Below are positions 303-24,532 of a stretch of DNA of 32,000 nt, one piece after another (position 1 is the first letter of the stretch; the number at the start of each line of letters is the position of its first letter). The DNA is from Gemmata obscuriglobus (GTDB lineage Bacteria; Planctomycetota; Planctomycetia; Gemmatales; Gemmataceae). The position numbers and the translations under genes are program-made. Below the pieces are notes generated by a model that worked only from the letters and a program-made list of their open reading frames with translations, was not told the origin of the DNA and searched no databases. The DNA lies in the NCBI RefSeq assembly GCF_008065095.1, contig NZ_CP042911.1:3630001-3662000 (forward strand), written 5' to 3'.

Positions 303-2561
303 ATGACGAGCGACTACGGCGAGTTTTTGCGGTCGAAGGTGCGGGCGGTCGAGCCGGCGGGGTTCGAGAACGGGCGGCTCCCGAAGGGCCTGTTCCCGCA
401 CCAGCGGGCGATCGTGAAGTGGGCGTGCCGGATGGGCCGCGGGGCGGTCTTCGCCGACACCGGGCTCGGCAAAACGCTGATGCTGCTCGCGTGGGCGGAT
501 CAGGTGTACCGCCGCACCGATCGGCCGGTGCTGGTGCTGACGCCGCTCGCAGTCGCTGAGCAGACGGCAGAAGAGGCGAAGAGATTTGGGATCGAAGGCG
601 TTTTCCGAACCGACTCGCCCGCCGGCTACGTCGATTACTCCCGGGTCGTGGTCACGAACTACCAGAAGCTGCACCGGTTCGACCCGTCCGCCTTCGGTGG
701 CGTTGTTCTGGATGAGAGTTCGATCCTCAAGAGCCACGACGGGGCGTACCGCAAGGCCCTGACGGAGGCGTTCGCGGCCACGCCGTACAAGCTGTGCTGC
801 ACCGCGACCCCGGCCCCGAACGACCACACCGAGATCGGCACCCACGCCGAGTTCTTGGGCGTGATGAGCCGGACGGAGATGCTCGCCACCTACTTCGTTC
901 ACGACTCGGGCGACACGTCGGAGTGGCGGCTGAAGGGGCACGCGGTCCGCGACTTCTGGCGGTGGGTCGCGTCGTGGGCGGTGCTGTGCCGGCGGCCGTC
1001 CGACCTGGGGTTCAGTGACGAGGGGTACGAACTGCCCCCGCTCCGCGTCCACGAGGTCGAGATCGAGACCGCCGCCCAGGCGGGCGTACTGTTCGCGACC
1101 GCGGAGACCACGCTCGCCGGCCAGCGGGCGGCCCGGAAGGAGTCGATGGATGGTCGCGCGACCACGTCCGCCCGGATCGCGAACGAGCCCGGCCCGTGCG
1201 TTGTGTGGGCGGAACTGAACGCCGAAGCCGACGCGGTTCAGGAACTGATTCCGGACGCGGTGCAGGTCGCGGGGGCGGACAAGGACGAGGACAAGCTGTC
1301 GCGGCTGAAGGGGTTCGCGGCTGGAACACACCGGGTGCTGGTCACCAAGACCACCGTGGCCGGGTTCGGGCTCAACTGGCAGCACTGCCGCCGCATGGTG
1401 TTCGTGGGGCTGTCGAACAGCTACGAGCAGTTCTATCAGGCGGTTCGGCGGTGCTGGCGGTTCGGCCAGACGGGGCCGGTGGACGTGTACCTGATCGGCA
1501 CGGCCCGCGACGCCGGGGTGTGGGCGAACATCGCCCGCAAGCAGCGGGACCACGAGGCGATGGTCGAGGGGATGCTACAGCACACCCGGGACGTGAACCG
1601 CGAACAACTGGGGGCGACCGTGAAGCAGACCGACGAGTACCGGACGGGCCGGACCGGGGGCAAGACCGACGCGTGGATGATCCACCTCGGGGACTGCGTG
1701 GAAACGCTCCGCGGGTTCGACCCGGAGTGCGTCGATTACAGCCTGTTCTCGCCCCCGTTCGCGTCGCTCTACACGTACAGCAACTCGCCGCGGGACATGG
1801 GCAACTGCGGCACCTACGCCGAGTTCGCGGCCCACTTCGGGTTCCTCGTGGCGGAACTGTACCGCGTGCTGAAGCCGGGGCGGCTGGTGTCCTTCCACTG
1901 CATGAACCTGCCGACCACGAAAGAGCACCACGGGTACATCGGGATCCAGGACTTCCGCGGCGACCTGATCCGGCAGTTCCAAGCCGCGGGGTTCATCTAC
2001 CACTCGGAGGTGTGCGTCTGGAAGGATCCGGTCACTGCGATGCAGCGGACGAAGGCCCTCGGGCTGCTCCACAAGCAGCTCAAAAAGGACTCGTGCATGT
2101 CGCGGCAGGGGATTCCGGACTTCGTCGTCACGGTGCGGAAGCCGGGCGTCAACCCGGCTCCGGTCAGCCACACGAACGACACGTTCCCGGTGGACCGGTG
2201 GCAACGGTACGCCTCCCCGGTGTGGATGGACATCGACCAGTCCGACACGCTGAACAACTACCGCGACGCCCGCCAGGAGCAGGACGAGCGGCACATCTGC
2301 CCGCTCCAGCTCGGCGTAATCGAGCGGTGCCTGGAGCTGTGGTCGCGCCCGGGCGACCTCGTTCTGTCCCCGTTCGCGGGCATCGGCAGCGAGGGGTACG
2401 TTGCTCTCAAGATGAAGCGGCGGTTCGTCGGGTGCGAGTTGAAGCCGTCGTACTTCGAGATCGCGACCGCGAACCTGCGGCGGGCCGAAGCAGAATCGTC
2501 ACAACCCACATTGTTCGACTGTCTGGGTGAGTCGGAAACTACCCCGGCCGATGCGGCGTAG
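303..2561 (+). CDS. SNF2-family helicase fused to an N6/N4 DNA methyltransferase
   Basis: ORF-track frame 279..2561. ATG 303 is preferred because the same GGATACGGGGAGAAC leader precedes ATG 4185. N-terminal half has helicase motifs ADTGLGKT (Walker A), VLDESS (motif II), CTATPAPN (motif III) and QAVRRCWRFGQ (motif VI). C-terminal half has FSPPF, a (D/S)PP(Y/F) catalytic motif, and SPFAGIGSEG, an FxGxG AdoMet motif. Confidence 0.85.
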   Translation: MTSDYGEFLRSKVRAVEPAGFENGRLPKGLFPHQRAIVKWACRMGRGAVFADTGLGKTLMLLAWADQVYRRTDRPVLVLTPLAVAEQTAEEAKRFGIEGVFRTDSPAGYVDYSRVVVTNYQKLHRFDPSAFGGVVLDESSILKSHDGAYRKALTEAFAATPYKLCCTATPAPNDHTEIGTHAEFLGVMSRTEMLATYFVHDSGDTSEWRLKGHAVRDFWRWVASWAVLCRRPSDLGFSDEGYELPPLRVHEVEIETAAQAGVLFATAETTLAGQRAARKESMDGRATTSARIANEPGPCVVWAELNAEADAVQELIPDAVQVAGADKDEDKLSRLKGFAAGTHRVLVTKTTVAGFGLNWQHCRRMVFVGLSNSYEQFYQAVRRCWRFGQTGPVDVYLIGTARDAGVWANIARKQRDHEAMVEGMLQHTRDVNREQLGATVKQTDEYRTGRTGGKTDAWMIHLGDCVETLRGFDPECVDYSLFSPPFASLYTYSNSPRDMGNCGTYAEFAAHFGFLVAELYRVLKPGRLVSFHCMNLPTTKEHHGYIGIQDFRGDLIRQFQAAGFIYHSEVCVWKDPVTAMQRTKALGLLHKQLKKDSCMSRQGIPDFVVTVRKPGVNPAPVSHTNDTFPVDRWQRYASPVWMDIDQSDTLNNYRDARQEQDERHICPLQLGVIERCLELWSRPGDLVLSPFAGIGSEGYVALKMKRRFVGCELKPSYFEIATANLRRAEAESSQPTLFDCLGESETTPADAA
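1150..1165. repeat. palindrome copy (15/16), in CDS
   Basis: atggtcgcgcgaccac; read as GRATT in the helicase-MTase. Confidence 0.9.
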
Positions 2562-5209: not shown

Positions 5210-5557
5210 GTGGAAGTGTGGGCGGCGGTGCTGTCGGCCCTCGTGCAGTCGCGGGGGCACCCGAGGCCGGAACGCGAGTACCGGTTCCATTCGGACCGGA
5301 TGTGGCGGTTCGACCTCGCGTGGCCGGCGCTGAAGGTCGCGTTCGAGCGGGAAGGGCTCGCGACCAAGGGCGGGAAGTCGCGGCACACGACCAACGCCGG
5401 GTACGCGGGCGACATCGAGAAGTACAACGCGGCGGCACTCGCCGGGTGGGTCGTGATCCGCGGCACGACGCGGATGATCGAGAGCGGCGAGGCGGGGAAC
5501 GATCTGCTGACGGCACTCGAACTGGCGAGTGGTCGCGCGACCACTTTGGGGGAATGA
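5210..5557 (+). CDS. Vsr/DUF559-like PD-(D/E)xK endonuclease-fold protein
   Basis: Frame of ORF 5159..5557. GTG 5210 follows ACGGGAG by 7 nt; the alternative start is ATG 5168 (ATGA overlap). Motifs REYRFH..RFDLAWP..VAFEREG..GWVVIRG resemble DUF559/Vsr-type nucleases. Confidence 0.5.
   Translation: MEVWAAVLSALVQSRGHPRPEREYRFHSDRMWRFDLAWPALKVAFEREGLATKGGKSRHTTNAGYAGDIEKYNAAALAGWVVIRGTTRMIESGEAGNDLLTALELASGRATTLGE
5529..5544. repeat. palindrome copy (16/16)
   Basis: In the last codons of the nuclease gene (GRATT), 16 nt before ATG 5561. Confidence 0.95.
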
Positions 5558-5560: not shown

Positions 5561-6124
5561 ATGGCGGCGGTAGCAGCGGAGAGCGACGCCGATCTGTGTG
5601 CGGCGGTGTCGGCGGGCCGGGCGGCGGCGGACGCCCTCCTCAAGCGGCACGAGAAGCTGATCTGGTCGTGCGTCCACCGGCTCCAGTTGCCGGACTGGGT
5701 GGACCGCGACGACATCTTCCAGGCCGGTCAGGTGGCCTTGGCCCACGCGGCGACGAAGTGGACCGAGGGGGCCGGGGCCAAGTTCACGACTTACGCCCGC
5801 ACCGCGATCTGGAACGCGGTGGTGAACGAGTCCCGGAAGCAGCAGAAGAAGGCCACGAGCTTCGACGACCGGCCCAACGACCCGGACGGCTCGGACCTGC
5901 TTAACACCCTTGCCGCACCCGAACCCACCGACCCGCCGGAGTGGCTGGTGAAGGGCATCGGGCGGTTGTCGCCCGTCCTGCGGCGGGTCGTCGTGCTGCA
6001 CTTCGGGCTGGAAGGGGAGCCGCGGACGTGGGGCGAGATCGCGTCGGCCACCGGCATGACGGTCGCAGTGGCGAAGCGAGCACTGGAACTGGCACTGGCT
6101 CAACTCACCCCGCAGACCGTGTGA
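5561..6124 (+). CDS. sigma-70 family (group 4/ECF-like) RNA polymerase sigma factor
   Basis: Region-2-like DDIFQAGQVALAHAATKW..FTTYARTAIWNAVVNESRK and region-4 HTH-like LSPVLRRVVVLHFGLEGEPRTWGEIASATGMTVAVAKRAL. Confidence 0.75.
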   Translation: MAAVAAESDADLCAAVSAGRAAADALLKRHEKLIWSCVHRLQLPDWVDRDDIFQAGQVALAHAATKWTEGAGAKFTTYARTAIWNAVVNESRKQQKKATSFDDRPNDPDGSDLLNTLAAPEPTDPPEWLVKGIGRLSPVLRRVVVLHFGLEGEPRTWGEIASATGMTVAVAKRALELALAQLTPQTV

Positions 6125-6422: not shown

Positions 6423-6851
6423 ATGGGAGCGAACGCACCGCCGAACCCGGACGACGGCGGCAACATGCGGCGTACCAAGATCAGCGATCAGAAGATCGCT
6501 GCGGTGGCTGCGTTGATCGTTCAGGGGAACTTTCGGTATGTCGCGGGCAAGGCGGTCGGTGTGCCGCCCCGGACGTTCCGAGACTGGATGAAGCGGGGCA
6601 AAGAGTACCCGGACGGACTTTACGGTCAGTTCCGGATTGCTGTCATTGCCGCCGAAGCTGAGGCCGAGCGTAAGGCCGTAGCTGCCGTGATTGCCGCCGG
6701 CCAGGACGACGCCAAACACCTCGAATGGTGGCTCGAGCGGAAGTTCCCGGAACGCTGGGGGAAGTTTCGCGGGGAGTTGAACGACCTGAAGCGTGAGATT
6801 GCGGAACTGAAGAGGCAGATCGGTGAGACTCAACCTTCGGAAACTCCGTGA
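6423..6851 (+). CDS. terminase small subunit-like HTH protein
   Basis: In-frame ATG 6423 (alternative 6465) within ORF 6240..6851. HTH-like GKAVGVPPRTFRDWMKRG and WWLERKFPERWG, typical of small terminase families. Lies directly upstream of the large terminase and overlaps it. Confidence 0.55.
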   Translation: MGANAPPNPDDGGNMRRTKISDQKIAAVAALIVQGNFRYVAGKAVGVPPRTFRDWMKRGKEYPDGLYGQFRIAVIAAEAEAERKAVAAVIAAGQDDAKHLEWWLERKFPERWGKFRGELNDLKREIAELKRQIGETQPSETP

Positions 6852-8382
6852 GCAGGTCGAGTCGCTGAAGCGGCAGGTGGCCTCAAAGGGGTGGATTGAT
6901 TACGCCAAGTACCGAACCGACCCGGCCGGGTACGCCCGCGACATCTTGAAGGTAAAGTGGTGGGCGAAGCAGGTCGAGATCGCCGAAGCGCTGTGCAAGC
7001 CGCCGTACCGCGTTCTGGTCAAGGCGTCTCACTCCGTCGGAAAGTCACACCTCGCGGGCGGTCTGGTCAACTGGTGGTACGACACCCGGTTCCCGGGCGT
7101 GTGTCTTACGACCGCCCCGACCGATCGGCAGGTCAAGGACGTGCTGTGGAAAGAAGTGCGGCGGCAACGGCGGAAGCGGCCCGGGTTCGTGGGGCCGAAG
7201 ATGCCCCGGTTGGAATCCGACCCCACGCACTTCGCCCACGGGTTCACGGCACGGGATGCTACGAGCTTCCAGGGCCAGCACGAGGCGTCCATCCTGCTCA
7301 TTTTTGATGAAGCGGTCGGGATCGACGGCGATTTTTGGGAGGCCGCCGAGTCGATGTGCCAGGGTGCCGAGTACGGGTGGCTCGCGATCTTCAACCCGAC
7401 CGACACCACCTCGCGGGCGTACCTCGAAGAGCAGGCCGGTTCCCGGTGGACAGTGATCGACATTCCCGCGACCGAGCACCCGAACATCGCGGCCGAACTG
7501 GTCGCGCGACCACCCGAGTACCCGTCGGCGGTCCGACTCAACTGGCTCCGTGATCGGCTGGAGCAGTGGGCCGAGCGGATCGAACCGGGGGACGCGACCC
7601 CGACCGACATCCAATTCCCGAACCCCGACGGCTCGCCGCAGTGGTGGCGACCGGGGCCGTTGGCGGACGCCCGACTGCTCGCCCGGTGGCCGGCGAGCGG
7701 GTGCGGCGTGTGGTCCGATCCTGTGTGGCGTTCCGTCGAGCGTGCCGCCCCAGATCCGGTTCCCGAGCGGTGGTTACCACAAATCGGGTGCGATGTGGCC
7801 CGGTTCGGCGAGGACTGGACCGAATTGCACGTCCGGTGCGGCAACGTCAGTCTGCACCACGAGGCTCACAACGGCTGGGACACCAAGCGGACGACCGAGC
7901 GGCTGAAACAGATGTGCGGCGAGTGGGCACAGTGGGCGACGCAGCTTCGTGATCGCGGTGCAGATCCGATTGACCCGCGACGGATCCCGGTGAAGGTTGA
8001 CGACGACGGAGTAGGCGGCGGCGTCACGGACCAGCGAGGTGGGTTCAACTTTCAGGCCGTGTCGTCCGCCTCGAACGCCAACGACAAAGAGGCGTACCCG
8101 AACCGCCGGAGCGAGTTGTGGTTCACAGTCGCCGACCGGGCCAAACGGGGCGAACTGTTCTTGTCGAACCTACCCGCCCACGTCCGGCAGGAACTGAAGC
8201 GGCAGGCGATGGCCCCGACCTACAAACTGGACGCGGCCGGTCGTCGTGTGGTCGAGCCAAAAGAAGACACGAAAGAACGGATCGGTCGCTCGCCAGACGG
8301 AATGGACGCGGTGAACCTCGCGTACTACGAGCCGAGCGGCCGGGGCGGGGCGGTGGCGGTCGAAGGGTCACGCGGTCGGTGA
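6823..8382 (+). CDS. terL: terminase large subunit
   Basis: GTG 6823 lies 7 nt after AAGAGG. Walker A-like KASHSVGKSH, Walker B-like ILLIFDEA, and RNaseH-like nuclease motif IGCDVARFGEDWTEL. 519 aa. Confidence 0.8.
   Translation: MRLNLRKLREQVESLKRQVASKGWIDYAKYRTDPAGYARDILKVKWWAKQVEIAEALCKPPYRVLVKASHSVGKSHLAGGLVNWWYDTRFPGVCLTTAPTDRQVKDVLWKEVRRQRRKRPGFVGPKMPRLESDPTHFAHGFTARDATSFQGQHEASILLIFDEAVGIDGDFWEAAESMCQGAEYGWLAIFNPTDTTSRAYLEEQAGSRWTVIDIPATEHPNIAAELVARPPEYPSAVRLNWLRDRLEQWAERIEPGDATPTDIQFPNPDGSPQWWRPGPLADARLLARWPASGCGVWSDPVWRSVERAAPDPVPERWLPQIGCDVARFGEDWTELHVRCGNVSLHHEAHNGWDTKRTTERLKQMCGEWAQWATQLRDRGADPIDPRRIPVKVDDDGVGGGVTDQRGGFNFQAVSSASNANDKEAYPNRRSELWFTVADRAKRGELFLSNLPAHVRQELKRQAMAPTYKLDAAGRRVVEPKEDTKERIGRSPDGMDAVNLAYYEPSGRGGAVAVEGSRGR
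7498..7513. repeat. palindrome copy (15/16), in CDS
   Basis: ctggtcgcgcgaccac; read as LVARPP in terL. Confidence 0.9.
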
Positions 8383-8383
8383 A

Positions 8384-8399
8384 GTGGTCGCGCGACCAC
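8384..8399. repeat. palindrome copy (16/16)
   Basis: 1 nt after TGA 8380-8382, 15 nt before ATG 8415. Confidence 0.95.
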
Positions 8400-8414
8400 C
8401 ATTGAGGGCACACG

Positions 8415-11400
8415 ATGGCGATCGATAAGCCGGTTCTGTGGGGGGCGGACGGCAACCCTCTTTCCCAAGAGGGGGCGCTGCTCTCCCCGAACGCCCTGAA
8501 CGTCGCCCAGGTCATCCAGAACGCCGGGAAGATGTACTCGCACACGTGGGACGAGGCGATGCGGGACGCCCCGCAGAACGCCCTCGCCATGCGGCGCGAC
8601 CCGTTCTACCGGTCGATGCTGCAAGAGCGGACCTCGCCGACGCAGAACCTCGACTGGGAGGTGGCGGTTCCGAACGAGGACGATCCGGTCCACCGGTTGC
8701 AGCGGGACACGCTCCAACGCGCGTGGGAGGAGCTTCCGGACAAGCCGAACCTGATGTACTCGCTCCTCGACGGTGCCCTTTGGTGGGGGCGGTCCGGTCA
8801 GCAGGGCATGTGGGGCCAGAGCGACAGCGGGCTCACGAACTGGCTGTACCACGAGCCGGTCCACGGCGACTCGATTCAGCACCAGTGGGACCGCACGCCC
8901 GTCATTCTCGTGTCGTGGCAGGCGAAGCAGAAGTTGGAGCGGGACGACCCCGAGTGCATCATCAGCTCGTCCACCCGCGGGGCGTACGGGCTGCGGCTGT
9001 ACAAGCCCGAGTACCGCAAGCGGTTTATCCTCCACACCCACGTTCGTGAGGCGTCGGACTATTACGAAGGTGAGATGGCGGGCGGCGTCCACGGCGTCGG
9101 GCTCCGCTCGTGGGCGTACTGGGGCGATTACGTCCGCCGCGACATCCTCGCGGCGATGCTCGGGTTCATGAACTCGACCGGGATGATGGACCTCGTCATC
9201 ATCAACTACCCGGACGGCAACGTCGAGGCCGAAAAGCGGGCGATCGCGAACGCCAAGAAGATCAGCGGCAAGCTCGTGCTCATCTGCCCCCGCGACCCGT
9301 CGAAGGACTGGCCCGCGGTCGAACAGGTGCCGATGAACACCGCCGGCGTCGAGGTGGTGCAGAACCTGCTGGAGAACTACTTCGACCGTTACACGCGGGA
9401 GCTGTTCGTCGGGCAGAACATGAGCAACGGCGGCGGCGGGCCGGGCGGGCTGGAGGGCGATGGCCGCGCCGAACTGGCCGGCGATACCAAGTTCCAACTC
9501 TGCAAGACGGACGCCCGCCGCTTGGCCGAGACGCTCACGCGGGACTGGCTCGTCCCGTGCCGGGATTACAACTTCCCCGGCTCGAAGGTGCCGGTGACGA
9601 TGAAGCCCATCCTGGCCGATCCCAAGGCCAAGGAGAAGGCACAGAACATTAGCGTCTGCGTCGCCAACGGCATCGAGATCGAGGAAGACGAGGCACGCCG
9701 GGCGTTGGGCTTCTCGAAGCCGCGAGAGGGCAAGAAAACGATCGGGGCGAAGCCGGCGGCCGATCCGACGAACCCGACCGCACCACCGGGCGACGGCGGG
9801 GCGGTCGCGCGCCCACCCCAGCCCCCGAAGCCGGACGGCGGGCACGACCTCGCGACCGACTTCCTCCAGCGGATCGGGCGGCTGGAAGATCTGCTCATGT
9901 ACCGGCTGAACCAGCCGCCGTGGCCGGGTGCGGTGTTCGACGAACAGCGCCACCGCTGGGTGAACAAGGACGGCAGCGACGGGCCGCAAGGTGGTCGCGC
10001 GACCACAGCCGGGAACGGTAACGGCCAACCGGCCCCGCAGCTCGGCGACGCGGACCGGGACGACATCGCCAACGGCATCGACGCCGACGTGCGGGCCTGG
10101 AAGGGTGAGGAGATCCCGCCCGGACTCGTGCAGCGGGCGAAGGACGTGGCACTGACGATTGCGGCCAAAACCTACATCTGGGCGACGCAGGCCACGCACT
10201 CGAAGGCAATGGCGACGCTCGGCGAGGTGATGGGGGCCGTGTTCGACACGCCGGCCGACATGATGAAGTTGGGGTACAACCCGTCCACGTCGAGCGGCAC
10301 GTCCGGTGCGGGCGTGGCCGATCCGGTCAAGGCGAACCTGAACGACGCGTTCGGCGTCGGCGTGTCCGGTCACCTCGTCGCGTCCGTCGCGTCGAAGGTG
10401 CTGGTGAAGGCGGCATATTGGGTGCGGAACCGGACGCAGAAGGGCGAGCAGCCGACCGCCCTCTCTTTGGTGGCGTTGCTGTACGAAGGCGACCAAGAGC
10501 CGGACGGGTTCTTCGAGTGGGCCGAGTTCATCGCGACCGTGCTTCAGAGGACCGCAAAGGGGATCGGCAGCGACGCCCAGATGCCGGACGCGGCGACCGT
10601 CGAGCGGAACCTGCGGGCGCTGGTGGAAGAACGCCAGAAAGCCGAAGGGGACGACGACCTCACCGGGTACGCGTGGGACGAATCGCAGGTCAAGCGGGAC
10701 GGGGACGGTCAGTTCGCCCCGAAGAACGGTGGGGAGTACGGACCCGACCACCCCCGCACCCGCAAGGGGCGGCCGGTGCCGCGGTCCGCAATCCGTCTGG
10801 CCGCCACCTCCCCGGACGATGCCGACGAGATCCGCAAGCGGTTGAGCGTTCCGGCCGAACGCGAGAAGTTCGACGCGGCGGTCAAGGCCGAGAAGCGACG
10901 GATCGGTGACGCCCGCCGCAAGAAGCGGCTCGACCTCGCCGGCAAGGCCGCCGCCGCCGAAGGCGACCGGATCGGCAAGATGCCCGCCGCGGCCCGCCGG
11001 CTCAAACTCGACGGACTCGCGGCCGAACTCTCGCAGGCGGCGAACGCGATCCGATCGGCCCACACGGTCAAGCAGGCCAAGACCGAACTCAAAGCGGTCA
11101 AAAAGCGAATCGCGACGGCCGCCAAGGATGTTCGCAAGGCGTTCGGGGAAGAGGCAACTCGGTACGCCGGAACACTCGGCGTACCGGACCGGATTGCCAA
11201 GGAGATCGGTCGCGGCATCGCGTCGGCCGCCAAATACGACAACGTTCCGCCGCTACCAACGGACGCGATCGAAGACGCTCTGGGCGAAGTAAACTCGGCA
11301 TGGAGCAGCGGTCGCCGACGCGACGCCTTGAAGAACCTGACGGACGCGTTCGACGCGTCACTCGACACCTCTCGTGTTGCGGCGGCCGTTAAGGATTGGG

Positions 11401-12512
11401 CCGGGGATGGCGGGTACGCACGGGAAATCCTCGAACGGGCTCTCGAACTGCGGGTGGACGAGATCGACCCCAAGCGGGGCGAGTCGGCCGCCGCGTACAA
11501 ACAGCGGCTCGAGAACGACCACGGGTTCAAAAACCTGCCGCAACCCGAGGCGGGTGAGAGTGCGAAAGACTACTCCTACACGCCGGACATTGAGAACACG
11601 CGGTCCGATCGGAGCGACGCCGTCGCCGCGAATTGGCTCAGCGGGTTCGCCGACCACATCGCGAAAGCGTTCGGGAGTGGTCGCGCGACCACCTCATACG
11701 ACTGGGATGCGGGCGACCACCCACGCGGCCAGCCCGACAACGCCGGCCAGTTCGCACCGAAGGGCGGCGGCACAAAGGAGAGTGGCGACCGCCCAAAAGC
11801 TGACGCCGGTGGTCGCGCGACCACCGGCAACCTCCGGGACCGCCTGAACGATAAAGACGACCCGATCAACGCCGACGCGGGCCGTAGCGGTCGCGCGACC
11901 ACGCATGCGGATAAGGCGTCCAAACGGAATCGCCCGAAAGCCGTCGGGGTTGCGGGCGTGGTGGATGTGGCCCGGTCGCGGCGGATCAAGAAGGCTCACA
12001 AGGTCGAGCAGGAGGTCGCGGTCGCAGTTGAAGGGGCGAACCTGCCCGACAGCGAGCCGGCGGACGTGGTGTACATGCCAGACGCTCGGGGCAAGCCAAT
12101 CACGGACCCGGCCGAATCGAAGCGGTGGCTCGCCCAACGTGCCAAGGTACTTGCCGCTCACAACAAGCGGCAGGCGGGACAGGAACTCACCGCTGCCGAA
12201 CGGTCATTGGCCGAGGTGGCAGAAACGGTGCTGTCGAATCCGGCCCACTTCTTCGAGGTAAAAACCTTGCAGAAGGCACGACAGAACCGGGTGCGGATGA
12301 CTGCCGACGCCCTCGATAAGAAACGGGCATGGCAGGCGAAGTACAACGTGGTATTCTCCGTCGTCATCGTTGACGAGCGGAAGGGCTCGAAGCACTCGGG
12401 ACACCGAGTCTACGTCGCCCCCGCCACGCTCGAAAAGACGGTGTCGCTCGCCGATTGTGTAAAAGTCGGCAGCATCGCAGAGGTGCTCAAACACGCCCGG
12501 GGTGGCTCGTGA
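8415..12512 (+). CDS. portal-containing giant head protein (portal-like N-terminus plus long C-terminal extension)
   Basis: Uninterrupted 1365-codon frame with high GC3, directly downstream of terL. The portal call for the first ~460 aa rests on synteny only. Low-complexity linkers carry 5 copies of the 16-bp palindrome. Confidence 0.5.
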   Translation: MAIDKPVLWGADGNPLSQEGALLSPNALNVAQVIQNAGKMYSHTWDEAMRDAPQNALAMRRDPFYRSMLQERTSPTQNLDWEVAVPNEDDPVHRLQRDTLQRAWEELPDKPNLMYSLLDGALWWGRSGQQGMWGQSDSGLTNWLYHEPVHGDSIQHQWDRTPVILVSWQAKQKLERDDPECIISSSTRGAYGLRLYKPEYRKRFILHTHVREASDYYEGEMAGGVHGVGLRSWAYWGDYVRRDILAAMLGFMNSTGMMDLVIINYPDGNVEAEKRAIANAKKISGKLVLICPRDPSKDWPAVEQVPMNTAGVEVVQNLLENYFDRYTRELFVGQNMSNGGGGPGGLEGDGRAELAGDTKFQLCKTDARRLAETLTRDWLVPCRDYNFPGSKVPVTMKPILADPKAKEKAQNISVCVANGIEIEEDEARRALGFSKPREGKKTIGAKPAADPTNPTAPPGDGGAVARPPQPPKPDGGHDLATDFLQRIGRLEDLLMYRLNQPPWPGAVFDEQRHRWVNKDGSDGPQGGRATTAGNGNGQPAPQLGDADRDDIANGIDADVRAWKGEEIPPGLVQRAKDVALTIAAKTYIWATQATHSKAMATLGEVMGAVFDTPADMMKLGYNPSTSSGTSGAGVADPVKANLNDAFGVGVSGHLVASVASKVLVKAAYWVRNRTQKGEQPTALSLVALLYEGDQEPDGFFEWAEFIATVLQRTAKGIGSDAQMPDAATVERNLRALVEERQKAEGDDDLTGYAWDESQVKRDGDGQFAPKNGGEYGPDHPRTRKGRPVPRSAIRLAATSPDDADEIRKRLSVPAEREKFDAAVKAEKRRIGDARRKKRLDLAGKAAAAEGDRIGKMPAAARRLKLDGLAAELSQAANAIRSAHTVKQAKTELKAVKKRIATAAKDVRKAFGEEATRYAGTLGVPDRIAKEIGRGIASAAKYDNVPPLPTDAIEDALGEVNSAWSSGRRRDALKNLTDAFDASLDTSRVAAAVKDWAGDGGYAREILERALELRVDEIDPKRGESAAAYKQRLENDHGFKNLPQPEAGESAKDYSYTPDIENTRSDRSDAVAANWLSGFADHIAKAFGSGRATTSYDWDAGDHPRGQPDNAGQFAPKGGGTKESGDRPKADAGGRATTGNLRDRLNDKDDPINADAGRSGRATTHADKASKRNRPKAVGVAGVVDVARSRRIKKAHKVEQEVAVAVEGANLPDSEPADVVYMPDARGKPITDPAESKRWLAQRAKVLAAHNKRQAGQELTAAERSLAEVAETVLSNPAHFFEVKTLQKARQNRVRMTADALDKKRAWQAKYNVVFSVVIVDERKGSKHSGHRVYVAPATLEKTVSLADCVKVGSIAEVLKHARGGS
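9801..9816. repeat. palindrome copy (14/16), in CDS
   Basis: gcggtcgcgcgcccac; read as AVARPP in the 1365-aa ORF. Confidence 0.7.
9991..10006. repeat. palindrome copy (16/16), in CDS
   Basis: Read as GGRATT in the 1365-aa ORF. Confidence 0.95.
11677..11692. repeat. palindrome copy (16/16), in CDS
   Basis: Read as SGRATT in the 1365-aa ORF. Confidence 0.95.
11809..11824. repeat. palindrome copy (16/16; 22-bp palindrome 11806-11827), in CDS
   Basis: Read as GGRATT. Confidence 0.95.
11887..11902. repeat. palindrome copy (15/16), in CDS
   Basis: gcggtcgcgcgaccac; read as SGRATT. Confidence 0.9.
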
Positions 12513-12850
12513 GCTACAGCGTCTACTACGCCTTCGAGGACAAGGAAGCTCAGGACGGCCCGTTCGTCGCGTCCGGAACCGGATGGCTCGATTGGGGCGA
12601 ATGGGTTCTCGATATCGAAGGGTGCGAGGAGTGCCACACGCTGTACGAAGCCGGCTGGGCGATGGCCGAACCCATCCGAGACGAACTCGAACGGCTGCTC
12701 GACGCCGACGGGCACAATGAAGACCGCGACGACATCACACGTGCTGTTCTGAAGGCCGTGAACGCTTTACCCCCTGGGTGCGAGACTATCATCATTTCGG
12801 ACGGCACCGAACCGGGAGATGATGATGACGACAGCGGCGAAGACGAGTGA
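12509..12850 (+). CDS. hypothetical acidic protein
   Basis: Frame of ORF 12455..12850. GTG 12509 overlaps the upstream stop (GTGA). C-terminus is poly-Asp/Glu. Confidence 0.5.
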   Translation: MSYSVYYAFEDKEAQDGPFVASGTGWLDWGEWVLDIEGCEECHTLYEAGWAMAEPIRDELERLLDADGHNEDRDDITRAVLKAVNALPPGCETIIISDGTEPGDDDDDSGEDE

Positions 12851-13532
12851 CATCATCGGCGAATTGCCATGTTCAGATACGCGGTGCGCGAAGGGATGGA
12901 TCACGACCCGAACTCGCGTCGCGGAAATGGAGCGTGGCGAGTACAACCTGTCGAAGTGGCGATGCTCGAAATGCGATGGGAAAGGCATCAGGGTGGTCGC
13001 GCGACCACCCCAGATCGCGTGCGGTGATCTTCCCGACCCATCTGGGTTGCTCGCTTGGATCAGTGCGGATCCGGACGAGGACACACACCGGCTCGGCTAC
13101 GCCGACTGGCTTGACGAACACGAACAACACCAGAGAGCGGAATACATCCGACTGTGCTGTGCGCCGGCGGGATCTCTGCCGCACACTACCCGTGTGGGCG
13201 AGTTATTCGATGATCTGTTTCAGCGTCTGCCGCCGAGCTACTGCCTCAAGGACATGCACCGTGGGTTCATCAAGCGGATCGTTTGCCCGTGGGAGAGGTG
13301 GCGTGATCACGGTGATGATTTGCGATCCCGTGAATGGGTTCCGCTCGTCGAACTGACGACGCAAGTTGTTTTTGATGAGGCCGTAGAAGAGTTTTGGGAC
13401 ACCCACGTCCGCGTCGCTGGTCGTGACATGGCGACCATTATTTCACCTCATGACGGTAGCCGAATGGACGCTCAAATACTCGAACGTCGTTGGCTGGGCA
13501 CTCGGTTCATTCTTGGCCCCATTCCATTCTGA
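12819..13532 (+). CDS. zinc-ribbon plus TIGR02996-like (Gemmata repeat-companion) domain protein
   Basis: CxxC..CxxCxGxG cysteines, then DTHRLGYADWLDEHEQHQRAEYIRLC, which resembles the TIGR02996 signature. Start uncertain (ATG 12819/12822/12825). Confidence 0.55.
   Translation: MMMTTAAKTSDIIGELPCSDTRCAKGWITTRTRVAEMERGEYNLSKWRCSKCDGKGIRVVARPPQIACGDLPDPSGLLAWISADPDEDTHRLGYADWLDEHEQHQRAEYIRLCCAPAGSLPHTTRVGELFDDLFQRLPPSYCLKDMHRGFIKRIVCPWERWRDHGDDLRSREWVPLVELTTQVVFDEAVEEFWDTHVRVAGRDMATIISPHDGSRMDAQILERRWLGTRFILGPIPF
12993..13008. repeat. palindrome copy (16/16; 20-bp palindrome 12991-13010), in CDS
   Basis: Read as VVARPP between the zinc-ribbon and TIGR02996-like parts. Confidence 0.95.
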
Positions 13533-13548
13533 ATGGCCGCGCGACCAC
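13533..13548. repeat. palindrome copy (14/16)
   Basis: atggccgcgcgaccac; 1 nt after TGA 13530-13532, 2 nt before the TACCATAA box. Confidence 0.75.
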
Positions 13549-14731: not shown

Positions 14732-14750
14732 CCGCTGTCAGCGGCCCGAA

Positions 14751-15200: not shown

Positions 15201-15218
15201 TCGGGCCGGTCGCCGCGA

Positions 15219-15234
15219 CCGGTCGCGCGACCAC
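15219..15234. repeat. palindrome copy (14/16) overlapping a second palindrome 15206-15222
   Basis: ccggtcgcgcgaccac; 33 nt before ATG 15268. Confidence 0.8.
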
Positions 15235-16371: not shown

Positions 16372-16391
16372 TCCGCCGCGGCGGCCCGGAA

Positions 16392-17055: not shown

Positions 17056-17087
17056 CGGGGCTGCTGGTCGATCGTCCAGCAGCCCCG
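17056..17087 (+). terminator. 12-bp GC-rich hairpin after the head genes
   Basis: cggggctgctgg-tcgatcgt-ccagcagccccg followed by the T-rich ttctcgttcgtgt. Confidence 0.5.
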
Positions 17088-17816: not shown

Positions 17817-18006
17817 CATCGGGTTCACGTCTGGTTAAATGCTGTCGGGGAGTGTGGCTGGAACCGAACTCTAAGGCCAAAAGACACGTACCTAACGTAG
17901 AGTTCTCTGCCACACGCGAATAAAATTCAAGTGACATCACCGGCACGTTTTTTTCACTGACTTCCCGCCCTGGACGGCTCAAAACCGCCTAGCGGTTGGA
18001 CGTGTC

Positions 18007-18582: not shown

Positions 18583-18583
18583 T

Positions 18584-19897: not shown

Positions 19898-19914
19898 CTC
19901 CCGGAGGACACCAC

Positions 19915-22645: not shown

Positions 22646-24532
22646 ATGTCGGTCATCGAATACAACTCGATCCGGTTCCACTTCGCCAAAACCGCGAGCG
22701 TCGAGTTCGATACGTCCCGCGACAAGAGTGGCGTGGACGTGATCGCCAACACGACCACGATCCGGGCTCGCGGCGTCGCCTCGCTCACCTCGCAGGTGCC
22801 GGGCGATTCAGCCGCCTTGCTGCCCACCATCCGACACATGCTGAACATGCCCCGGCGGCGACTCCTGTATCAAGTGGGGGGATACACCATCATCTCCCAA
22901 TCCGGGATGGACGCCCAGCTCGGGCCGACCCCGGTCAAGCCCGCCACCGTCGAGCCGGCGGGCAACGGCACCTTCTTCGTGGACGTGGCGTACAAGGTCA
23001 GCACCTACGACTGTGGCGAGGCGGCCTTGTCCGACCCCGTTACCTCCCTCCGCTGGACGCAGTCCGAGAGCTTCGACGACCGCTGGTTCTCCACCATCAC
23101 CACGTCCGGCACCCTGACCGTCCGGAGCGACCTGAACCAGTGCGCCGACAACTTCCGGCAGTTGGCGACGCCCCCGATCCTCGACGACTACCAACGCGTG
23201 TCCGCCAAGTACACCCTCGCACCCGACGGGCTCAGCCTGGACTTCGAGTTCACCGACCAAGAGAAATCGCTTCTCCCCCCGTACCCGGCCGTAGTTGCTG
23301 ATGGCGATTTTAACGTCATTTGCCCGCAGAACCATAAACGCACAGGAGTAGTCACAATCACGCTCGAAGGGGCAAAGGGGTGTAGTCGGAAAGACCTGAT
23401 GTTCGTTGGGCTGCGGATGGCAATCGCGAAACTCAAAGCCGAAGGATTCATCGACGGCTCCCCTCTCATGTGGGGCAATTTCTCGGAAAATCTGTTCCGG
23501 CCAGTAGTGAAGGTAAGTGTCCAGGCACTTCTCGCCACACTCGGTGGGACTGGTTTCGCTGGTGCGGCGGCGGCTAGTCTCGGCGCCGCCGCGGCCGGGA
23601 TGAATGGCCCGGCGGTGATGCGGAGCGTCGGCTACACGCCAGGAGTGCAGGAGGGCCGGTCGGGAATCGCCCCGCCGGTCCGTAAGCGGTTGCTCGGGCT
23701 CCTGGCCGCCGCGTTCCGAGACCCATGTGCGGCCAGCGAGGGCTTCACGGCCGAGCTGCGGAACGACCGTGGCGGATCGGGGTCCAACGCCGAACTCTCG
23801 ACCGGCGGTGCGTCACTCTCCACACCGCCCGCCGAACTCGTGACCGGAACGACCGGCGGGGCCGGCACATCCCCGATCAAGGACTACGCACCGTATGACC
23901 TGTACCGCATCCAGTTCGAGTACACGCAAGATACGGGGAAGCGGGTGATGCCGGGAACCGGCGTCGGTGACACGCCCCAGCGGGGCACGGCGGTGACCGT
24001 CCACGGGGGGCAAATGTTTCTGGAGGTAAGTTGGGCATGCCAGAGAACTGGCAGGCCGCCCCAGATCCCGTCGTTCTCCGTGAACGATCCGAACCTCGTT
24101 GCCATTGGCGGGACGTGCATCCCGGCCGAGATGCAGCTTTCCGCGGACGGGAGCGCCCCGACGTATCGCGTCGCCGGCCACTACATCTATGGCGTGTTGG
24201 ACCCGTCATTGGTGTCACTCACGGCCCCGGTGCCACCATATTTCAGCGATGGCGTGCTCACCACCGCACCGAACATCGCCAACTTTACGGCCCCCGTTGT
24301 CCGGACCGGGAGCAGCGGCTCCGGGTACAGCGGTGGGGGGGACTACGGAAGCAACATCTTCGTTCCTGAGCGCGAGCCCTCGCTTTCCGTCGAGCCCCCG
24401 TCGCAATTGGACCTGTTCGGCATCCCCGGCCCGATCGGCGGCGGGTTTCCGTTCGCCGGCCCTCCGGGTGGGTTGGGCTCTGGCGATACGGGGGGCGGCG
24501 GGCTCCTTCCCACAAACCCCGTGAACCCGTAG
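22646..24532 (+). CDS. large virion (tail/baseplate-like) protein, hypothetical
   Basis: ATG 22646 follows GGAGGGGG, within ORF 22601..24532. 628 aa with a Gly-rich C-terminus. Carries two sequences homologous to array spacers. Confidence 0.6.
   Translation: MSVIEYNSIRFHFAKTASVEFDTSRDKSGVDVIANTTTIRARGVASLTSQVPGDSAALLPTIRHMLNMPRRRLLYQVGGYTIISQSGMDAQLGPTPVKPATVEPAGNGTFFVDVAYKVSTYDCGEAALSDPVTSLRWTQSESFDDRWFSTITTSGTLTVRSDLNQCADNFRQLATPPILDDYQRVSAKYTLAPDGLSLDFEFTDQEKSLLPPYPAVVADGDFNVICPQNHKRTGVVTITLEGAKGCSRKDLMFVGLRMAIAKLKAEGFIDGSPLMWGNFSENLFRPVVKVSVQALLATLGGTGFAGAAAASLGAAAAGMNGPAVMRSVGYTPGVQEGRSGIAPPVRKRLLGLLAAAFRDPCAASEGFTAELRNDRGGSGSNAELSTGGASLSTPPAELVTGTTGGAGTSPIKDYAPYDLYRIQFEYTQDTGKRVMPGTGVGDTPQRGTAVTVHGGQMFLEVSWACQRTGRPPQIPSFSVNDPNLVAIGGTCIPAEMQLSADGSAPTYRVAGHYIYGVLDPSLVSLTAPVPPYFSDGVLTTAPNIANFTAPVVRTGSSGSGYSGGGDYGSNIFVPEREPSLSVEPPSQLDLFGIPGPIGGGFPFAGPPGGLGSGDTGGGGLLPTNPVNP

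What the first reader, a model, noticed from the sequence alone, without database searches (positions are those of the whole stretch)
9801..11902. In-frame palindrome copies sit at apparent domain linkers; five lie inside the 1365-aa ORF
The motif has no stop codon in any of its six frames; it reads VVARP, WSRDH or GRATT. Copies inside CDSs fall where domain boundaries are expected. In the SNF2 helicase (1150, ..MDGRATTSAR..) the copy lies between the two RecA-like lobes. In terL (7498, ..ELVARPPEYP..) it lies between the ATPase and nuclease parts. In gene 12819..13532 (12993) it lies between the zinc-ribbon and TIGR02996-like parts. Five copies lie in the giant ORF (9801, 9991, 11677, 11809, 11887). 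The last three fall within 226 nt of a G/D/P/K-rich stretch. Other in-CDS copies are at 20060, 22011, 27938, 29376, 30607 and 31841. Two readings are possible. In one, the giant ORF and other multidomain genes arose by fusion of neighbouring genes across former intergenic palindromes. In the other, the palindrome behaves like an insertion-tolerant mobile element, comparable to Rickettsia palindromic elements that insert in-frame.
Basis: inference. Interest (0 to 1): 0.7.

Follow-up and report, generated by a model that had tools for sequence, protein, structure and literature searches.

The report
Stop-free phage palindrome embedded in genes
A 14-base palindrome that marks almost every gene boundary in this uncultivated phage is also kept, base for base, inside its long genes, showing how a DNA signal with no stop codon in any frame can live inside proteins and let neighbouring genes fuse or split.

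Summary
TGGTCGCGCGACCA (core GGTCGCGCGACC) occurs 28 times exactly in 32 kb (0.03 expected). It occupies 21 of 26 intergenic gaps, usually 2-6 nt after a stop codon. All five copies in the 1365-aa ORF lie in predicted disordered linkers.

- Fusion or fission at a palindrome is shown for the C-terminal nuclease-like module of the giant ORF, which is a separate gene after a boundary palindrome in relatives.
- It is also supported for gene 12819..13532.
- The SNF2 and terL copies are neither fusion scars nor insertions. They replace homologous residues without any indel, and the SNF2 copy encodes part of a confident helix.
- Nothing supports a Rickettsia-type mobile element.

The DNA, not the peptide, is conserved:
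- Every GRATT uses the same rare codon set.
- Orthologous copies persist in 50-76% identical relatives.
- One orthologous copy switches reading frame.
- One lineage changed both half-sites in all copies (TGGCCGCGCGGCCA, giving GRAAT).
- Genes of 1.5 kb or more hold four times more internal copies per kb than short genes, often at different positions in different lineages.

Best reading: a clade-specific cis-element, probably a dimeric-protein site, kept at close spacing. Its function is untested.

The parts
8415..12512 (+). 1365-aa ORF: Mu-type portal with a roughly 900-aa modular C-terminal extension
   Evidence: Pfam Portal_Mu covers aa 58-432 (E 1.8e-30). GC3 is 0.72-0.93 in this one frame throughout. 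All 34 homologues are extended portals of 770-1700 aa with variable C-termini.
8586..9710 (+). Portal domain (aa 58-432)
   Evidence: Pfam PF06074 match. It is the only part alignable with L005.
9802..9815 (.). Degenerate in-frame copy CGGTCGCGCGCCCA, read as VARP
   Evidence: Orthologous copies are L132 5095 (VARP), L134 9238 (variant palindrome, AARP) and L135 11407, which is read in another frame (GRATS). It lies in a pLDDT<50 segment (model residues 1-61).
9816..9991 (+). Conserved mini-module between two palindromes (..FLQRIGRLE..QPPWPGAVFDEQRHRWVNKDGS..)
   Evidence: The segment is conserved in L132, L134 and L135 and is flanked by palindromes in all four. The model shows a helix and a small beta unit here.
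9992..10005 (.). Exact in-frame copy, read as GGRATT
   Evidence: Orthologous copies are L132 5288 (1 mismatch, SGHATT), L134 9443 (variant, SGRAAT) and L135 11593 (TGRATS). It lies in pLDDT<50 segment 86-104.
11678..11691 (.). Exact in-frame copy, read as SGRATT
   Evidence: It matches L132 7805 inside a separate gene. It lies in pLDDT<50 segment 597-710.
11810..11823 (.). Exact in-frame copy, read as GGRATT; it corresponds to a gene boundary in relatives
   Evidence: The DNA alignment shows the window reading GDRPKADAGGRATT straight through. L135 has ..DRPKA, TGA, then the palindrome and a new gene. P0008 also ends ..DRPKA*.
11888..11901 (.). In-frame copy (exact core, first base C), read as SGRATT
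   Evidence: It lies in pLDDT<50 segment 712-743.
11964..12509 (+). C-terminal folded domain (aa 1184-1365), with a PD-(D/E)xK / Hjc-like nuclease fold
   Evidence: pLDDT is mostly above 90. The best Foldseek PDB hits are Hjc Holliday-junction resolvases 2wiw and 2wcw (prob 0.98-0.99, E 0.15, TMt 0.40-0.46), then HincII and RecU. The domain is a stand-alone protein in 17 clusters.
1151..1164 (.). Exact in-frame copy in the SNF2-helicase/DNA-methylase gene 303..2561, read as GRATT
   Evidence: It aligns without a gap to xxR(V/A)xxAA in 120 homologues. It encodes the start of helix 282-293, pLDDT about 95. The orthologous copy is L135 112; P0035 has the GRAAT variant.
7499..7512 (.). Exact in-frame copy in terL 6823..8382, read as (L)VARP
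   Evidence: terL is identified by phrog_2. The copy sits in a gap-free block against L008, L009 and L005, which lack the motif there. L132 keeps it with 1 mismatch.
12994..13007 (.). Exact in-frame copy in gene 12819..13532, read as VVARP, between a Cys-rich N-terminal part and a TIGR02996 domain
   Evidence: TIGR02996 covers aa 75-115. In L132 the same domain starts at aa 4 of a gene preceded by an intergenic palindrome.
5530..5543 (.). 'Tail' copy: gene 5210..5557 reads through the junction palindrome (..SGRATTLGE*) before stopping
   Evidence: The same arrangement occurs in L134 (1554) and L135 (5617).
30608..30621 (.). 'Tail' copy at the end of gene 30111..30641
8385..8398 (.). Typical junction copy, 3 nt after the terL stop and 17 nt before the giant-ORF start
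   Evidence: In the window, 21 of 26 intergenic gaps of at least 14 nt carry a copy.
13534..13547 (.). Junction copy with one variant half-site (TGGCCGCGCGACCA)
   Evidence: The fully variant form TGGCCGCGCGGCCA is the genome-wide motif in relative L134.

Best explanation
**What the element is (shown).** The palindrome is a clade-specific cis-element found throughout the genome of a group of uncultivated phages with a Mu-type portal. The hosts are probably Gemmata-like planctomycetes. It sits behind most stop codons, at about 80% of gene junctions.

**Why it can sit inside genes (shown).** It has no stop codon in any frame, so ORFs can run through it. In-CDS copies arise in two ways:
- Junction copies become internal when neighbouring ORFs are joined, or they become boundaries again when an ORF splits. 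Examples are the nuclease-like C-terminal module of the giant ORF, gene 12819..13532, and the copies in the last codons of 5210..5557 and 30111..30641.
- Copies are built in place by base substitutions in existing coding sequence. Examples are SNF2 and terL.

**What is conserved (shown).** Both kinds are then kept as DNA, not as peptide.

**What the element does (inferred).** It is needed at close spacing, with a copy at least every 1.5 kb or so. Long genes therefore have to carry it. It survives there where the encoded peptide is harmless: mostly the GRATT frame in disordered linkers, or places where it mimics the residues already present. The uniform sequence within each genome, and the symmetric switch of both half-sites between lineages, point to recognition by a sequence-specific dimeric factor. 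The most likely case is a phage-encoded DNA-binding protein acting on an operator array similar to stoperators. No such protein was identified.
For: **Enrichment and placement.**
- 28 exact core copies in the window, against 0.03 expected.
- 21 of 26 intergenic gaps carry a copy.
- Copies lie 2-6 nt after stop codons even when the next start is 170-420 nt away.

**Same element in diverged relatives.**
- L005: terL 40% identical, GC 58%, 15 exact copies of the 14-mer in 14.2 kb (19 at up to 2 mismatches).
- L132, L135 and L136 also carry it.
- It is absent from the more distant L008, L009 and the Tuwongella prophage L137.

**The constraint is on DNA, not peptide.**
- All GRAT(T) peptides in the window are encoded by the motif or a decayed copy of it. 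Every GRATT encoded by an exact core uses GGT-CGC-GCG-ACC, although GGT accounts for only 13% of Gly codons.
- Orthologous in-CDS copies persist across portals that are 50-76% identical.
- One orthologous copy is read as VARP in three phages and as GRATS in L135.
- L134 has 17 copies of the variant core GGCCGCGCGGCC (full form TGGCCGCGCGGCCA), with both half-sites changed, in intergenic and in-CDS copies alike (GRAAT, AARP).

**Fusion or fission at palindromes.**

**Origin in place, without any indel.** SNF2. terL.

**Independent gains in the same genes.**
- SNF2 carries a copy at aa 283 in the window and L135, but at about aa 464 in L136.
- terL carries a copy at aa 226 in the window and L132, aa 17 and 389 in L005, about aa 329 in L136 and about aa 338 in L134.

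**Density rule.** Genes of 1.5 kb or more hold 21 internal copies in 31.3 kb, and 11 of 13 such genes have at least one. Genes under 1.2 kb hold 8 copies in 47.7 kb, and only 8 of 95 have one.

**Frame bias.** Internal copies: 23 in the GRATT frame, 6 as VARP, 3 as WSRD. Copies in the last codons of a gene: 7 of 7 in the GRATT frame.

**Not a generic hairpin or terminator.**
- Only 12-16 bp are conserved, with no other conserved box within 30 nt.
- Flank complementarity is weak.
- Only 2 copies in the first 20 kb fit a terminator pattern.
- Separate GC-rich hairpins stand between the stop codon and the motif at 14730 and 17056.
Against: - No binding protein was identified, and nothing here measures binding, transcription or RNA ends.
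- The motif can fold into an RNA hairpin with a 6-10 bp stem (-9 to -22 kcal/mol). Its position just behind stop codons would also suit a function at RNA 3' ends.
- The density comparison counts orthologous copies in related contigs, so the observations are not independent.
- Two genes of at least 1.5 kb have no internal copy: window 22646..24532 and the L135 terL.
- The relatives are metagenomic contigs with automatic or home-made gene calls.
- Whether the giant-ORF junctions arose by fusion or by fission was not resolved.
Confidence: 0.55

Rival explanations
1. The element works at the RNA level. It is a short hairpin of fixed sequence behind each cistron that serves as a 3'-end stabiliser, a processing site or a weak terminator. 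A sequence-specific RNA-binding factor or nuclease would recognise it, and the copies inside genes are tolerated or exploited.
For: Copies sit 2-6 nt after stop codons on both strands, even when the next gene is far away. Predicted hairpins have 6-10 bp stems with a GCGC loop, and several have z-scores of -2.6 to -5.5. The change seen in L134 preserves base pairing (U-A becomes C-G).
Against: Flanking complementarity barely exceeds the null. Only 2 of about 24 copies fit a terminator pattern. Separate ordinary hairpins precede the motif after the structural genes at 14730 and 17056. The three half-variant copies in clear plus-strand context give a C-A mismatch rather than G-U, and one of them no longer folds. 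Copies also stand at divergent junctions (6344, 22614). Copies conserved inside ORFs would truncate the mRNA.
Confidence: 0.25
2. One reading: each in-CDS copy is the scar of a fusion between formerly separate neighbouring genes.
For: This holds for the C-terminal module of the giant ORF and for gene 12819..13532. Copies in the last codons of genes show ORFs running through junction palindromes.
Against: The SNF2 copy replaces conserved residues in 120 full-length homologues and lies in a confident helix. The terL copy lies in a gap-free block of a gene that is never split. The same genes carry copies at different positions in different lineages.
Confidence: 0.1
3. The palindromes are recombination joints. 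Short identical sequences at module boundaries would promote exchange of genes and, because they contain no stop codon, in-frame exchange of protein modules. This resembles the PeSL cassettes of T4-type phages. The explanation could hold alongside the best one.
For: The C-terminal extensions of the portals are mosaic and not alignable between relatives, yet palindromes punctuate them. In L135, terL has been replaced by a non-homologous family between two palindromes. Several blastn matches between relatives end at palindromes, including the in-CDS copy at 9992. P0002 diverges from the window about 7 residues after one of its palindromes.
Against: About 80% of junctions carry a copy, so coincidence with module edges is nearly automatic. 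BLAST extensions tend to stop on a perfect 14-mer, which is an artefact. Protein homology continues 130-200 residues past copy 9992. The insertion in P0008 starts about 10 residues after the palindrome rather than at it. This model does not explain copies built in place in SNF2 and terL.
Confidence: 0.15
4. One reading: a small mobile palindromic element, like RPE, MITE or REP, that inserts in frame.
For: There are many identical copies, some of them inside ORFs. L005 terL has a 3-residue indel at its N-terminal GRATT.
Against: The conserved unit is 12-16 bp, and a 14-bp element cannot insert in frame. SNF2 and terL show no length change. No target duplications were seen. The truncated genome scan showed no multi-copy bacterial genome. 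IMG/VR scans for the motif and two variants gave only single chance hits apart from L005. Flank preferences differ between lineages.
Confidence: 0.04
5. The peptide is the functional unit. GRATT would be a protease cleavage site or a linker motif in the polyprotein-like portal, and the DNA identity would be incidental.
For: GRATT-like peptides recur in the linkers of many portal homologues.
Against: Codon use is identical in every copy despite a GC3-rich codon bias. The same site is read in different frames in different phages. The peptide changes to GRAAT exactly where the genome-wide DNA motif changes. Most copies are non-coding.
Confidence: 0.03

Closest known systems
Stoperators of Cluster A mycobacteriophages such as L5 (PMC9283540)
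   Same: There are tens of copies of one short conserved site spread over the whole phage genome. Most lie in short intergenic spaces next to stop and start codons, so every transcription unit carries sites.
   Different: Stoperators are asymmetric 13-mers bound by a monomeric repressor, and their orientation follows transcription (PMC9283540). The site here is a perfect palindrome about 2-3 times denser, with one copy per 0.8 kb. It is systematically embedded in frame in long genes, and no repressor is known.
phiC31 conserved inverted repeats (repressor operators repeated in intergenic regions) and the KorB OB operators of plasmid RK2. Both are recalled from memory and were not checked here.
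   Same: They are palindromic operators of a dimeric regulator, repeated many times at intergenic positions of one replicon.
   Different: They have fewer copies (about 12-18). They are not reported as conserved in-frame parts of proteins or as fusion joints. Binding is proven for them and untested here.
DNA uptake sequences (USS/DUS) of Pasteurellaceae and Neisseriaceae (PMC2817400)
   Same: A short over-represented motif occurs about once per kb in both intergenic and coding DNA. Coding copies arise by point mutation, show reading-frame bias, and sit preferentially at poorly conserved residues. Recently acquired genes lack them. Here, the replaced terL in L135 and gene 22646..24532 have none.
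   Different: USS/DUS are asymmetric motifs of cellular chromosomes, driven by the DNA-uptake machinery. The motif here is a palindrome of a phage clade tied to stop codons. No uptake process applies.
PeSL mobile regulatory cassettes of T4-type phages (PMC2839356, PMC4122927)
   Same: These are conserved intergenic motifs that flank genes and are associated with modular shuffling between related phages.
   Different: PeSLs combine a sigma-70 promoter with a terminator stem-loop and are concentrated in hyperplastic regions. The element here is a bare 12-16 bp palindrome with no promoter box. It is found genome-wide and in frame inside ORFs.
Rickettsia palindromic elements (RPE). Properties are recalled from memory; PMC10969869 turned up in a literature search but was not read.
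   Same: A palindromic repeat is found in frame inside protein-coding genes.
   Different: RPEs are 100-150 bp mobile insertions that add a peptide segment. Here the unit is 14 bp. The SNF2 and terL copies add no residues, and no mobility was detected.
Polyvalent or polymorphic-toxin head proteins of phages, such as MuF-toxin fusions. Recalled from memory.
   Same: A head-morphogenesis protein carries a long variable C-terminal array of effector-like modules joined by low-complexity linkers with HPR..G.F-type motifs. Homologues carry 2'-5' RNA ligase, ART and kinase domains.
   Different: Here the carrier is the portal itself, and the linkers contain a conserved DNA palindrome.

Membership tests
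RPE / MITE-like in-frame mobile insertion | The element is tens to more than 100 bp long, with its own extended structure | tested here: not met
   Only 12-16 bp are conserved. Information content drops to background within 2-3 nt on each side in five genomes.
RPE / MITE-like in-frame mobile insertion | Presence of the element corresponds to extra residues compared with homologues that lack it | tested here: not met
   SNF2 is gap-free in 120 homologues. terL is gap-free against L008, L009 and L005.
RPE / MITE-like in-frame mobile insertion | Many copies in the host chromosome | tested here: inconclusive
   The genome-contig scan gave single hits in unrelated GC-rich bacteria. The only multi-copy stretch was an 18.7-kb contig in a Gemmata MAG.
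Stoperator-type operator array | Many copies of one short site across the phage genome, mainly in short intergenic spaces | tested here: met
   There are 40 copies in 32 kb, and 21 of 26 gaps are occupied.
Stoperator-type operator array | An asymmetric site whose orientation follows transcription | tested here: not met
   The site is a perfect palindrome and occurs at convergent and divergent junctions alike.
Stoperator-type operator array | A cognate repressor binds the sites and blocks initiation or elongation | not testable with these tools
   No candidate protein was identified. Small conserved proteins gave no DNA-binding domain hits, apart from a sigma factor and a weak VRR_NUC match.
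PeSL-type regulatory cassette | A composite of a sigma-70-like promoter and a terminator stem-loop | tested here: not met
   There is no conserved box next to the palindrome. One promoter-like site was found in 20 kb, which is below chance. Only 2 copies fit the terminator pattern.
PeSL-type regulatory cassette | Indels and replacements between relatives are bounded by the motif | tested here: inconclusive
   The L135 terL replacement and the portal C-terminal modules are bounded by copies. With about 80% junction occupancy, this is expected anyway.
Uptake-sequence-like over-represented motif | Coding copies made by substitution, with frame bias, at tolerant positions | tested here: met
   Searches show no indel. 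Internal copies split 23, 6 and 3 across the three frames. All giant-ORF copies lie in pLDDT<50 segments. The SNF2 copy is an exception, in a helix.
Uptake-sequence-like over-represented motif | Driven by a sequence-biased DNA uptake machinery | not testable with these tools
   No such machinery is known for a phage. The comparison is an analogy of pattern only.
Intrinsic terminator / REP-type hairpin | A GC-rich stem followed by a U tract, with a stem sequence that is free to vary between sites | tested here: not met
   Two copies fit the pattern. The sequence is identical at all sites and across genomes.
Gene fusion / fission (Rosetta-stone) event | The two parts are separate adjacent genes in relatives, and the junction is homologous at the DNA level | tested here: met
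   The separate gene is L135 12310..13029, also seen as P0155, P0156 and P0157, while the window is fused. The junction alignment shows an 11-nt indel carrying the stop. The L132 gene 53..979 supports the same for the TIGR02996 part.
Mu-type portal protein (PF06074) | Pfam match above the gathering score | tested here: met
   106.9 bits against a cut-off of 23.9, covering aa 58-432.

The most novel reading that the evidence does not exclude
The stop-free palindrome is a dual-use element. It is a regulatory or recognition site that the phage must keep every 1.5 kb or less. At the same time it is a universal in-frame joint. Identical 14-mers that read GRATT would let modules of the portal-borne effector array, and whole genes, be swapped, fused and split between phages without breaking reading frames. 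That would be a prokaryotic-virus counterpart of exon shuffling, driven by a conserved DNA signal.
Probability: 0.15. Interest if true: 0.85.

Novelty: new variant of a known kind. Interest (0 to 1): 0.6.

Why it matters
- **A clean natural example of a DNA signal competing with protein coding.** One 14-mer is kept base for base inside proteins. It is read in different frames at the same site in different phages. It changes in step with the genome-wide motif in one lineage.
- **A simple route to gene fusion and fission.** A junction signal with no stop codon in any frame lets genes join or split, and the split and joined states are both observed at one homologous junction.
- **A lead on an unknown phage group.** If the element is an operator array, its density and its presence inside long genes imply an unusually tight, genome-wide control mechanism. 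Phages of planctomycetes have almost no experimental record.
- **A practical tag.** The motif and its variants can be used to recognise and bin genomes of this clade in metagenomes.

Tried and rejected
- **Close relatives among phage isolates.** Megablast of 8000-13000 against phage isolates found nothing. A tblastn of the giant ORF found only a weak Ochrobactrum phage hit. No cultured relative exists in that collection.
- **Known RNA families.** The Rfam gathering scan of the window gave 0 hits.
- **Literature.** A search for the motif string returned 0 papers.
- **Host REP idea.** The genome scan gave almost only single chance hits. Scans of IMG/VR for two motif variants also gave only singletons.
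- **Hairpin covariation in the flanks.** The excess was small: mean extension 1.56 against 1.07. It is explained mostly by a symmetric RRG..CYY composition, so I rejected it as evidence for a structure.
- **Terminator idea.** The consensus scan flags 2 copies.
- **Breakpoint coincidence from blastn matches.** I judged this unsafe. A perfect 14-mer anchors BLAST extensions, and protein homology runs past copy 9992.
- **Trans-acting factor.** Pfam, PHROGs and NCBIfam searches of small conserved proteins gave no DNA-binding domain. Hits were a sigma-70-type factor (5561..6124) and a weak VRR_NUC match for the homologue of 5210..5557.
- **C-terminal domain.** The sequence search of the PDB gave no hit. 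Only the fold search gave Hjc-like matches, at weak E-values.
- **Codon-usage gene caller.** It was trained on the window and failed on the lower-GC L005, so L005 frames were taken by hand.

Full report
**1. The observation**

The core GGTCGCGCGACC occurs 28 times exactly in the 32-kb window, against 0.03 expected from dinucleotide-preserving shuffles. The 14-mer TGGTCGCGCGACCA has 40 copies at up to 2 mismatches, against 0.49 expected. Inside ORF 8415..12512 there are five copies:
- 9802: two mismatches, read as VARP.
- 9992, 11678 and 11810: exact, read as GRATT.
- 11888: exact core, read as GRATT.

As a palindrome the motif can only be read as WSRD(H), VARP or GRAT(T), and none of these readings contains a stop codon.

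The giant ORF is one coding frame. GC3 is 0.72-0.93 in every 300-nt block. All detectable homologues are similarly extended portals of 770-1700 aa.

**2. Where the copies sit**

A codon-usage gene map places most copies 2-26 nt after a stop codon and 15-35 nt before the next start.
- 21 of 26 intergenic gaps of at least 14 nt carry a copy.
- Where the spacer is long, the copy stays next to the stop codon (17700, 19080, 26762, 25334, 26012).
- Copies occur at convergent junctions (6129) and divergent junctions (6344, 22614).
- Only 12-16 bp are conserved, with no second box within 30 nt.
- Complementarity beyond the 14-mer is only slightly above a flank-shuffling null (1.56 against 1.07 pairs).
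- Only two copies in the first 20 kb look like intrinsic terminators. After the structural genes, separate ordinary hairpins stand between the stop codon and the motif (14730, 17056).
- The motif can form a 6-10 bp hairpin. Even so, it behaves as a site of fixed sequence rather than a generic stem-loop.

**3. Context**

The window is a phage head and replication region. Identified genes are:
- an SNF2 helicase fused to a DNA methylase;
- a DnaN-like clamp;
- a PAPS-reductase-like gene;
- a sigma-70-type factor;
- terL (phrog_2);
- a Mu-type portal;
- a thymidylate synthase.

No cultured relative exists in the phage collection. Portal homologues include a prophage protein of Tuwongella immobilis. 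The only multi-copy genomic hit for the motif is a contig in a Gemmata MAG. A TIGR02996 domain, typical of Gemmata, is also present. The host is therefore probably a planctomycete. This is an inference.

**4. The same element in relatives**

| Locus | Relationship to the window | Motif copies |
|---|---|---|
| L005 (IMG/VR) | terL 40% and portal 38% identical; GC 58% against 65% | 15 exact 14-mers in 14.2 kb (19 at ≤2 mismatches) |
| L132 | portal 76% identical | 9 core copies in 8.3 kb |
| L135 | portal 52% identical | 16 copies in 14.7 kb |
| L136 | portal 55% identical | 23 core copies in 23.5 kb |
| L134 | portal 51% identical | no canonical copy; 17 copies of the variant core GGCCGCGCGGCC (full form TGGCCGCGCGGCCA) |
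| L008, L009, L137 (Tuwongella prophage) | more distant | none |

In L134 both half-sites are changed. The window itself holds five half-variant sites. A motif that is uniform within each genome, but differs between lineages by a symmetric change in both halves, implies sequence-specific recognition by a trans-acting factor of matching specificity. The alternative would be concerted evolution of all copies.

**5. DNA, not peptide, is conserved in the in-CDS copies**

- Every GRAT(T) peptide in the window's proteins is encoded by the motif or a decayed copy of it. Every GRATT from an exact core uses GGT-CGC-GCG-ACC, although GGT makes up only 13% of Gly codons.
- Copy 9992 has orthologues after the conserved FDEQxHRWxNxDGS block in L132 (SGHATT, 1 mismatch), L134 (SGRAAT, variant palindrome) and L135 (TGRATS).
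- Copy 9802 has orthologues in L132 (VARP) and L134 (AARP, variant). Its orthologue in L135 is read in a different frame, as GRATS.
- The SNF2 copy is shared with L135 and P0037, and is GRAAT in P0035.
- Across loci, internal copies favour the GRATT frame: 23, against 6 for VARP and 3 for WSRD. All seven copies in the last codons of a gene use the GRATT frame.

**6. Domain linkers**

An AlphaFold2 model of giant-ORF aa 440-1365 was built from 14 sequences and has a mean pLDDT of 57.6.
- All five copies fall in segments with pLDDT below 50 (model residues 1-61, 86-104, 597-710, 712-743).
- These segments separate a small conserved module, a helical middle part, and a C-terminal domain with pLDDT mostly above 90.
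- The best structural matches of that domain are archaeal Hjc Holliday-junction resolvases, then HincII and RecU. This is a PD-(D/E)xK fold, at weak E-values.

The SNF2 copy is different. In a good model (pLDDT 83.7) it encodes residues 284-288, at the start of helix 282-293 with pLDDT about 95.

**7. Testing the two readings**

Fusion or fission is directly visible at copy 11810.
- The window reads GDRPKADAGGRATT straight through.
- L135 reads ..GRDRPKA, then TGA, then has the palindrome 17 nt later. It then starts a separate 239-aa gene that matches window aa 1184-1359.
- The DNA aligns across the junction. L135 differs by an 11-nt indel that carries the stop codon.
- Two further independent contigs show the same split (P0008 ends ..DRPKA*; P0155 and P0156 begin MTAAGExGRATT).
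- The nuclease-like domain is a stand-alone protein in 17 clusters.
- In L132, the module matching window aa 1068-1283, with two in-frame palindromes, is a separate gene two genes downstream of the portal.

For gene 12819..13532, the TIGR02996 part that follows the palindrome is the N-terminus of an L132 gene preceded by an intergenic palindrome.

Genes 5210..5557 and 30111..30641, and several genes in relatives, read through a junction palindrome before stopping. This is the intermediate state between a boundary copy and an internal copy.

The SNF2 and terL copies show the opposite.
- The SNF2 GRATT aligns without a gap to xxR(V/A)xxAA in 120 homologues, and its Arg (R285) is invariant in a 43-sequence subset.
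- The terL LVARP replaces LRGEE, LEGKP or LAGRP in a block of constant length.
- These copies were made in place by substitution. They are neither fusion scars nor insertions.

Nothing supports an RPE-like mobile element.

**8. A spacing rule**

Pooling the window with L132, L134, L135 and L136:

| Gene length | Internal copies | Coding DNA | Genes with at least one copy |
|---|---|---|---|
| 1.5 kb or more | 21 | 31.3 kb | 11 of 13 |
| under 1.2 kb | 8 | 47.7 kb | 8 of 95 |

The same genes carry copies at different positions in different lineages:
- SNF2: aa 283 in the window and L135, about aa 464 in L136.
- terL: aa 226 in the window and L132, aa 17 and 389 in L005, about aa 329 in L136, about aa 338 in L134.

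With its in-CDS copies counted, the window has only one gap between successive copies longer than 1.7 kb (positions). The counts include orthologous copies, so they are not independent. The pattern still suggests selection, or a molecular drive, for a minimum density. It resembles the way uptake sequences colonise coding DNA (PMC2817400).

**9. Mechanism**

The following points are shown:
- The element is clade-specific and associated with gene boundaries.
- It is conserved at the DNA level.
- It contains no stop codon.
- It enters ORFs by two routes.

The following is inferred. A dimeric, sequence-specific factor recognises the element. The most likely case is a phage DNA-binding protein acting on a dense operator array, comparable to stoperators (PMC9283540) but symmetric. 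Long genes must carry sites, which persist where GRATT or VARP does no harm.

An RNA-level role remains a serious rival: a hairpin behind each cistron that is recognised by a specific factor. A PeSL-like role in modular exchange (PMC2839356) could hold alongside either model. My breakpoint evidence for it is weak and partly artefactual.

**10. Verdict**

The finding is real. It is more interesting than a list of coincidences, but its two proposed readings are respectively only partly right and wrong. It is a new variant of a known kind, namely a repeated regulatory or recognition site found throughout a phage genome. What is unusual is that the site is maintained in frame inside proteins, and that gene fusion or fission is documented at it.

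Noticed in passing
L134 whole locus (e.g. 1027, 9238, 9443, 10148): One relative has replaced the motif genome-wide with TGGCCGCGCGGCCA (17 core copies in 12.6 kb), with both half-sites changed. Its proteins accordingly read GRAAT or AARP. The window has five half-variant sites (13534, 16393, 30079, 28542, 28647).
   Followed up: partly
window 14730-14746, 17056-17087, 16374-16385: After the structural genes ending at 14731, 16371 and 17026, a separate ordinary GC-rich hairpin lies between the stop codon and the palindrome. The one at 17056 has a 12-bp stem and a T-rich tail. At these junctions the palindrome sits 20-74 nt from the stop instead of 2-6 nt.
   Followed up: partly
window 15208-15233: A degenerate extra copy, GGTCGC-C-GCGACC, overlaps by one base the junction copy that starts at 15220. 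The two form a tandem pair.
   Followed up: no
L135 8433..9968: In this relative terL belongs to a different, non-homologous family (Terminase_6N/6C), although the flanking genes are syntenic with the window. The replaced gene lies between two palindromes and has no internal copy.
   Followed up: partly
proteins P0021 and P0032 (portal homologues): Two distant portal homologues carry a long insertion, starting ..CVPV.GSEILTR.GF and ending ..(M/I)(V/I)TGNT, inside the conserved portal core. It looks like an intein (Hint-type). This is my reading of the sequence and was not tested.
   Followed up: no
window 11700-12509: The last 270 residues of the giant ORF match the C-terminal end of PHROG 113 ('portal protein') with E 1.3e-169. 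The PHROGs source set therefore contains a nearly identical giant portal, although the phage-isolate collection has no close relative.
   Followed up: no
window 5210..5557 and L136 6860..7201: A small protein just upstream of the sigma-factor gene is far better conserved than its neighbours: 79% identical to L134 and 66% to L135. Its L136 homologue has a weak VRR_NUC (PD-(D/E)xK nuclease) hit. Its last codons are encoded by the junction palindrome in all three phages checked (window, L134, L135).
   Followed up: partly
window 10690-10760 and 11700-11770: Motifs of the type W(D/E)xxxHPR..G.FAPKGGG (YAWDESQVKRDGDGQFAPKNGG and YDWDAGDHPRGQPDNAGQFAPKGGG) lie next to the linker palindromes. Similar HEH..G.F.G.GGG motifs start many stand-alone homologues of the C-terminal domain.
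   Followed up: no
window 22646..24532 and 18000-20000: The 1.9-kb gene 22646..24532 has no family match and no palindrome copy. It accounts for the one 2.7-kb gap in the array. GC content drops to 0.57 at 18-20 kb. Either could mark recently acquired DNA.
   Followed up: no
L003 and L002 (unrelated IMG/VR contigs hit by chance): L003 carries its own repeated 12-mer (AGGTTCGCGCCC, 7 copies in 15 kb). L002 carries CTCAAGCCTC and CTCAGGACTC about 15 times each.
   Followed up: no
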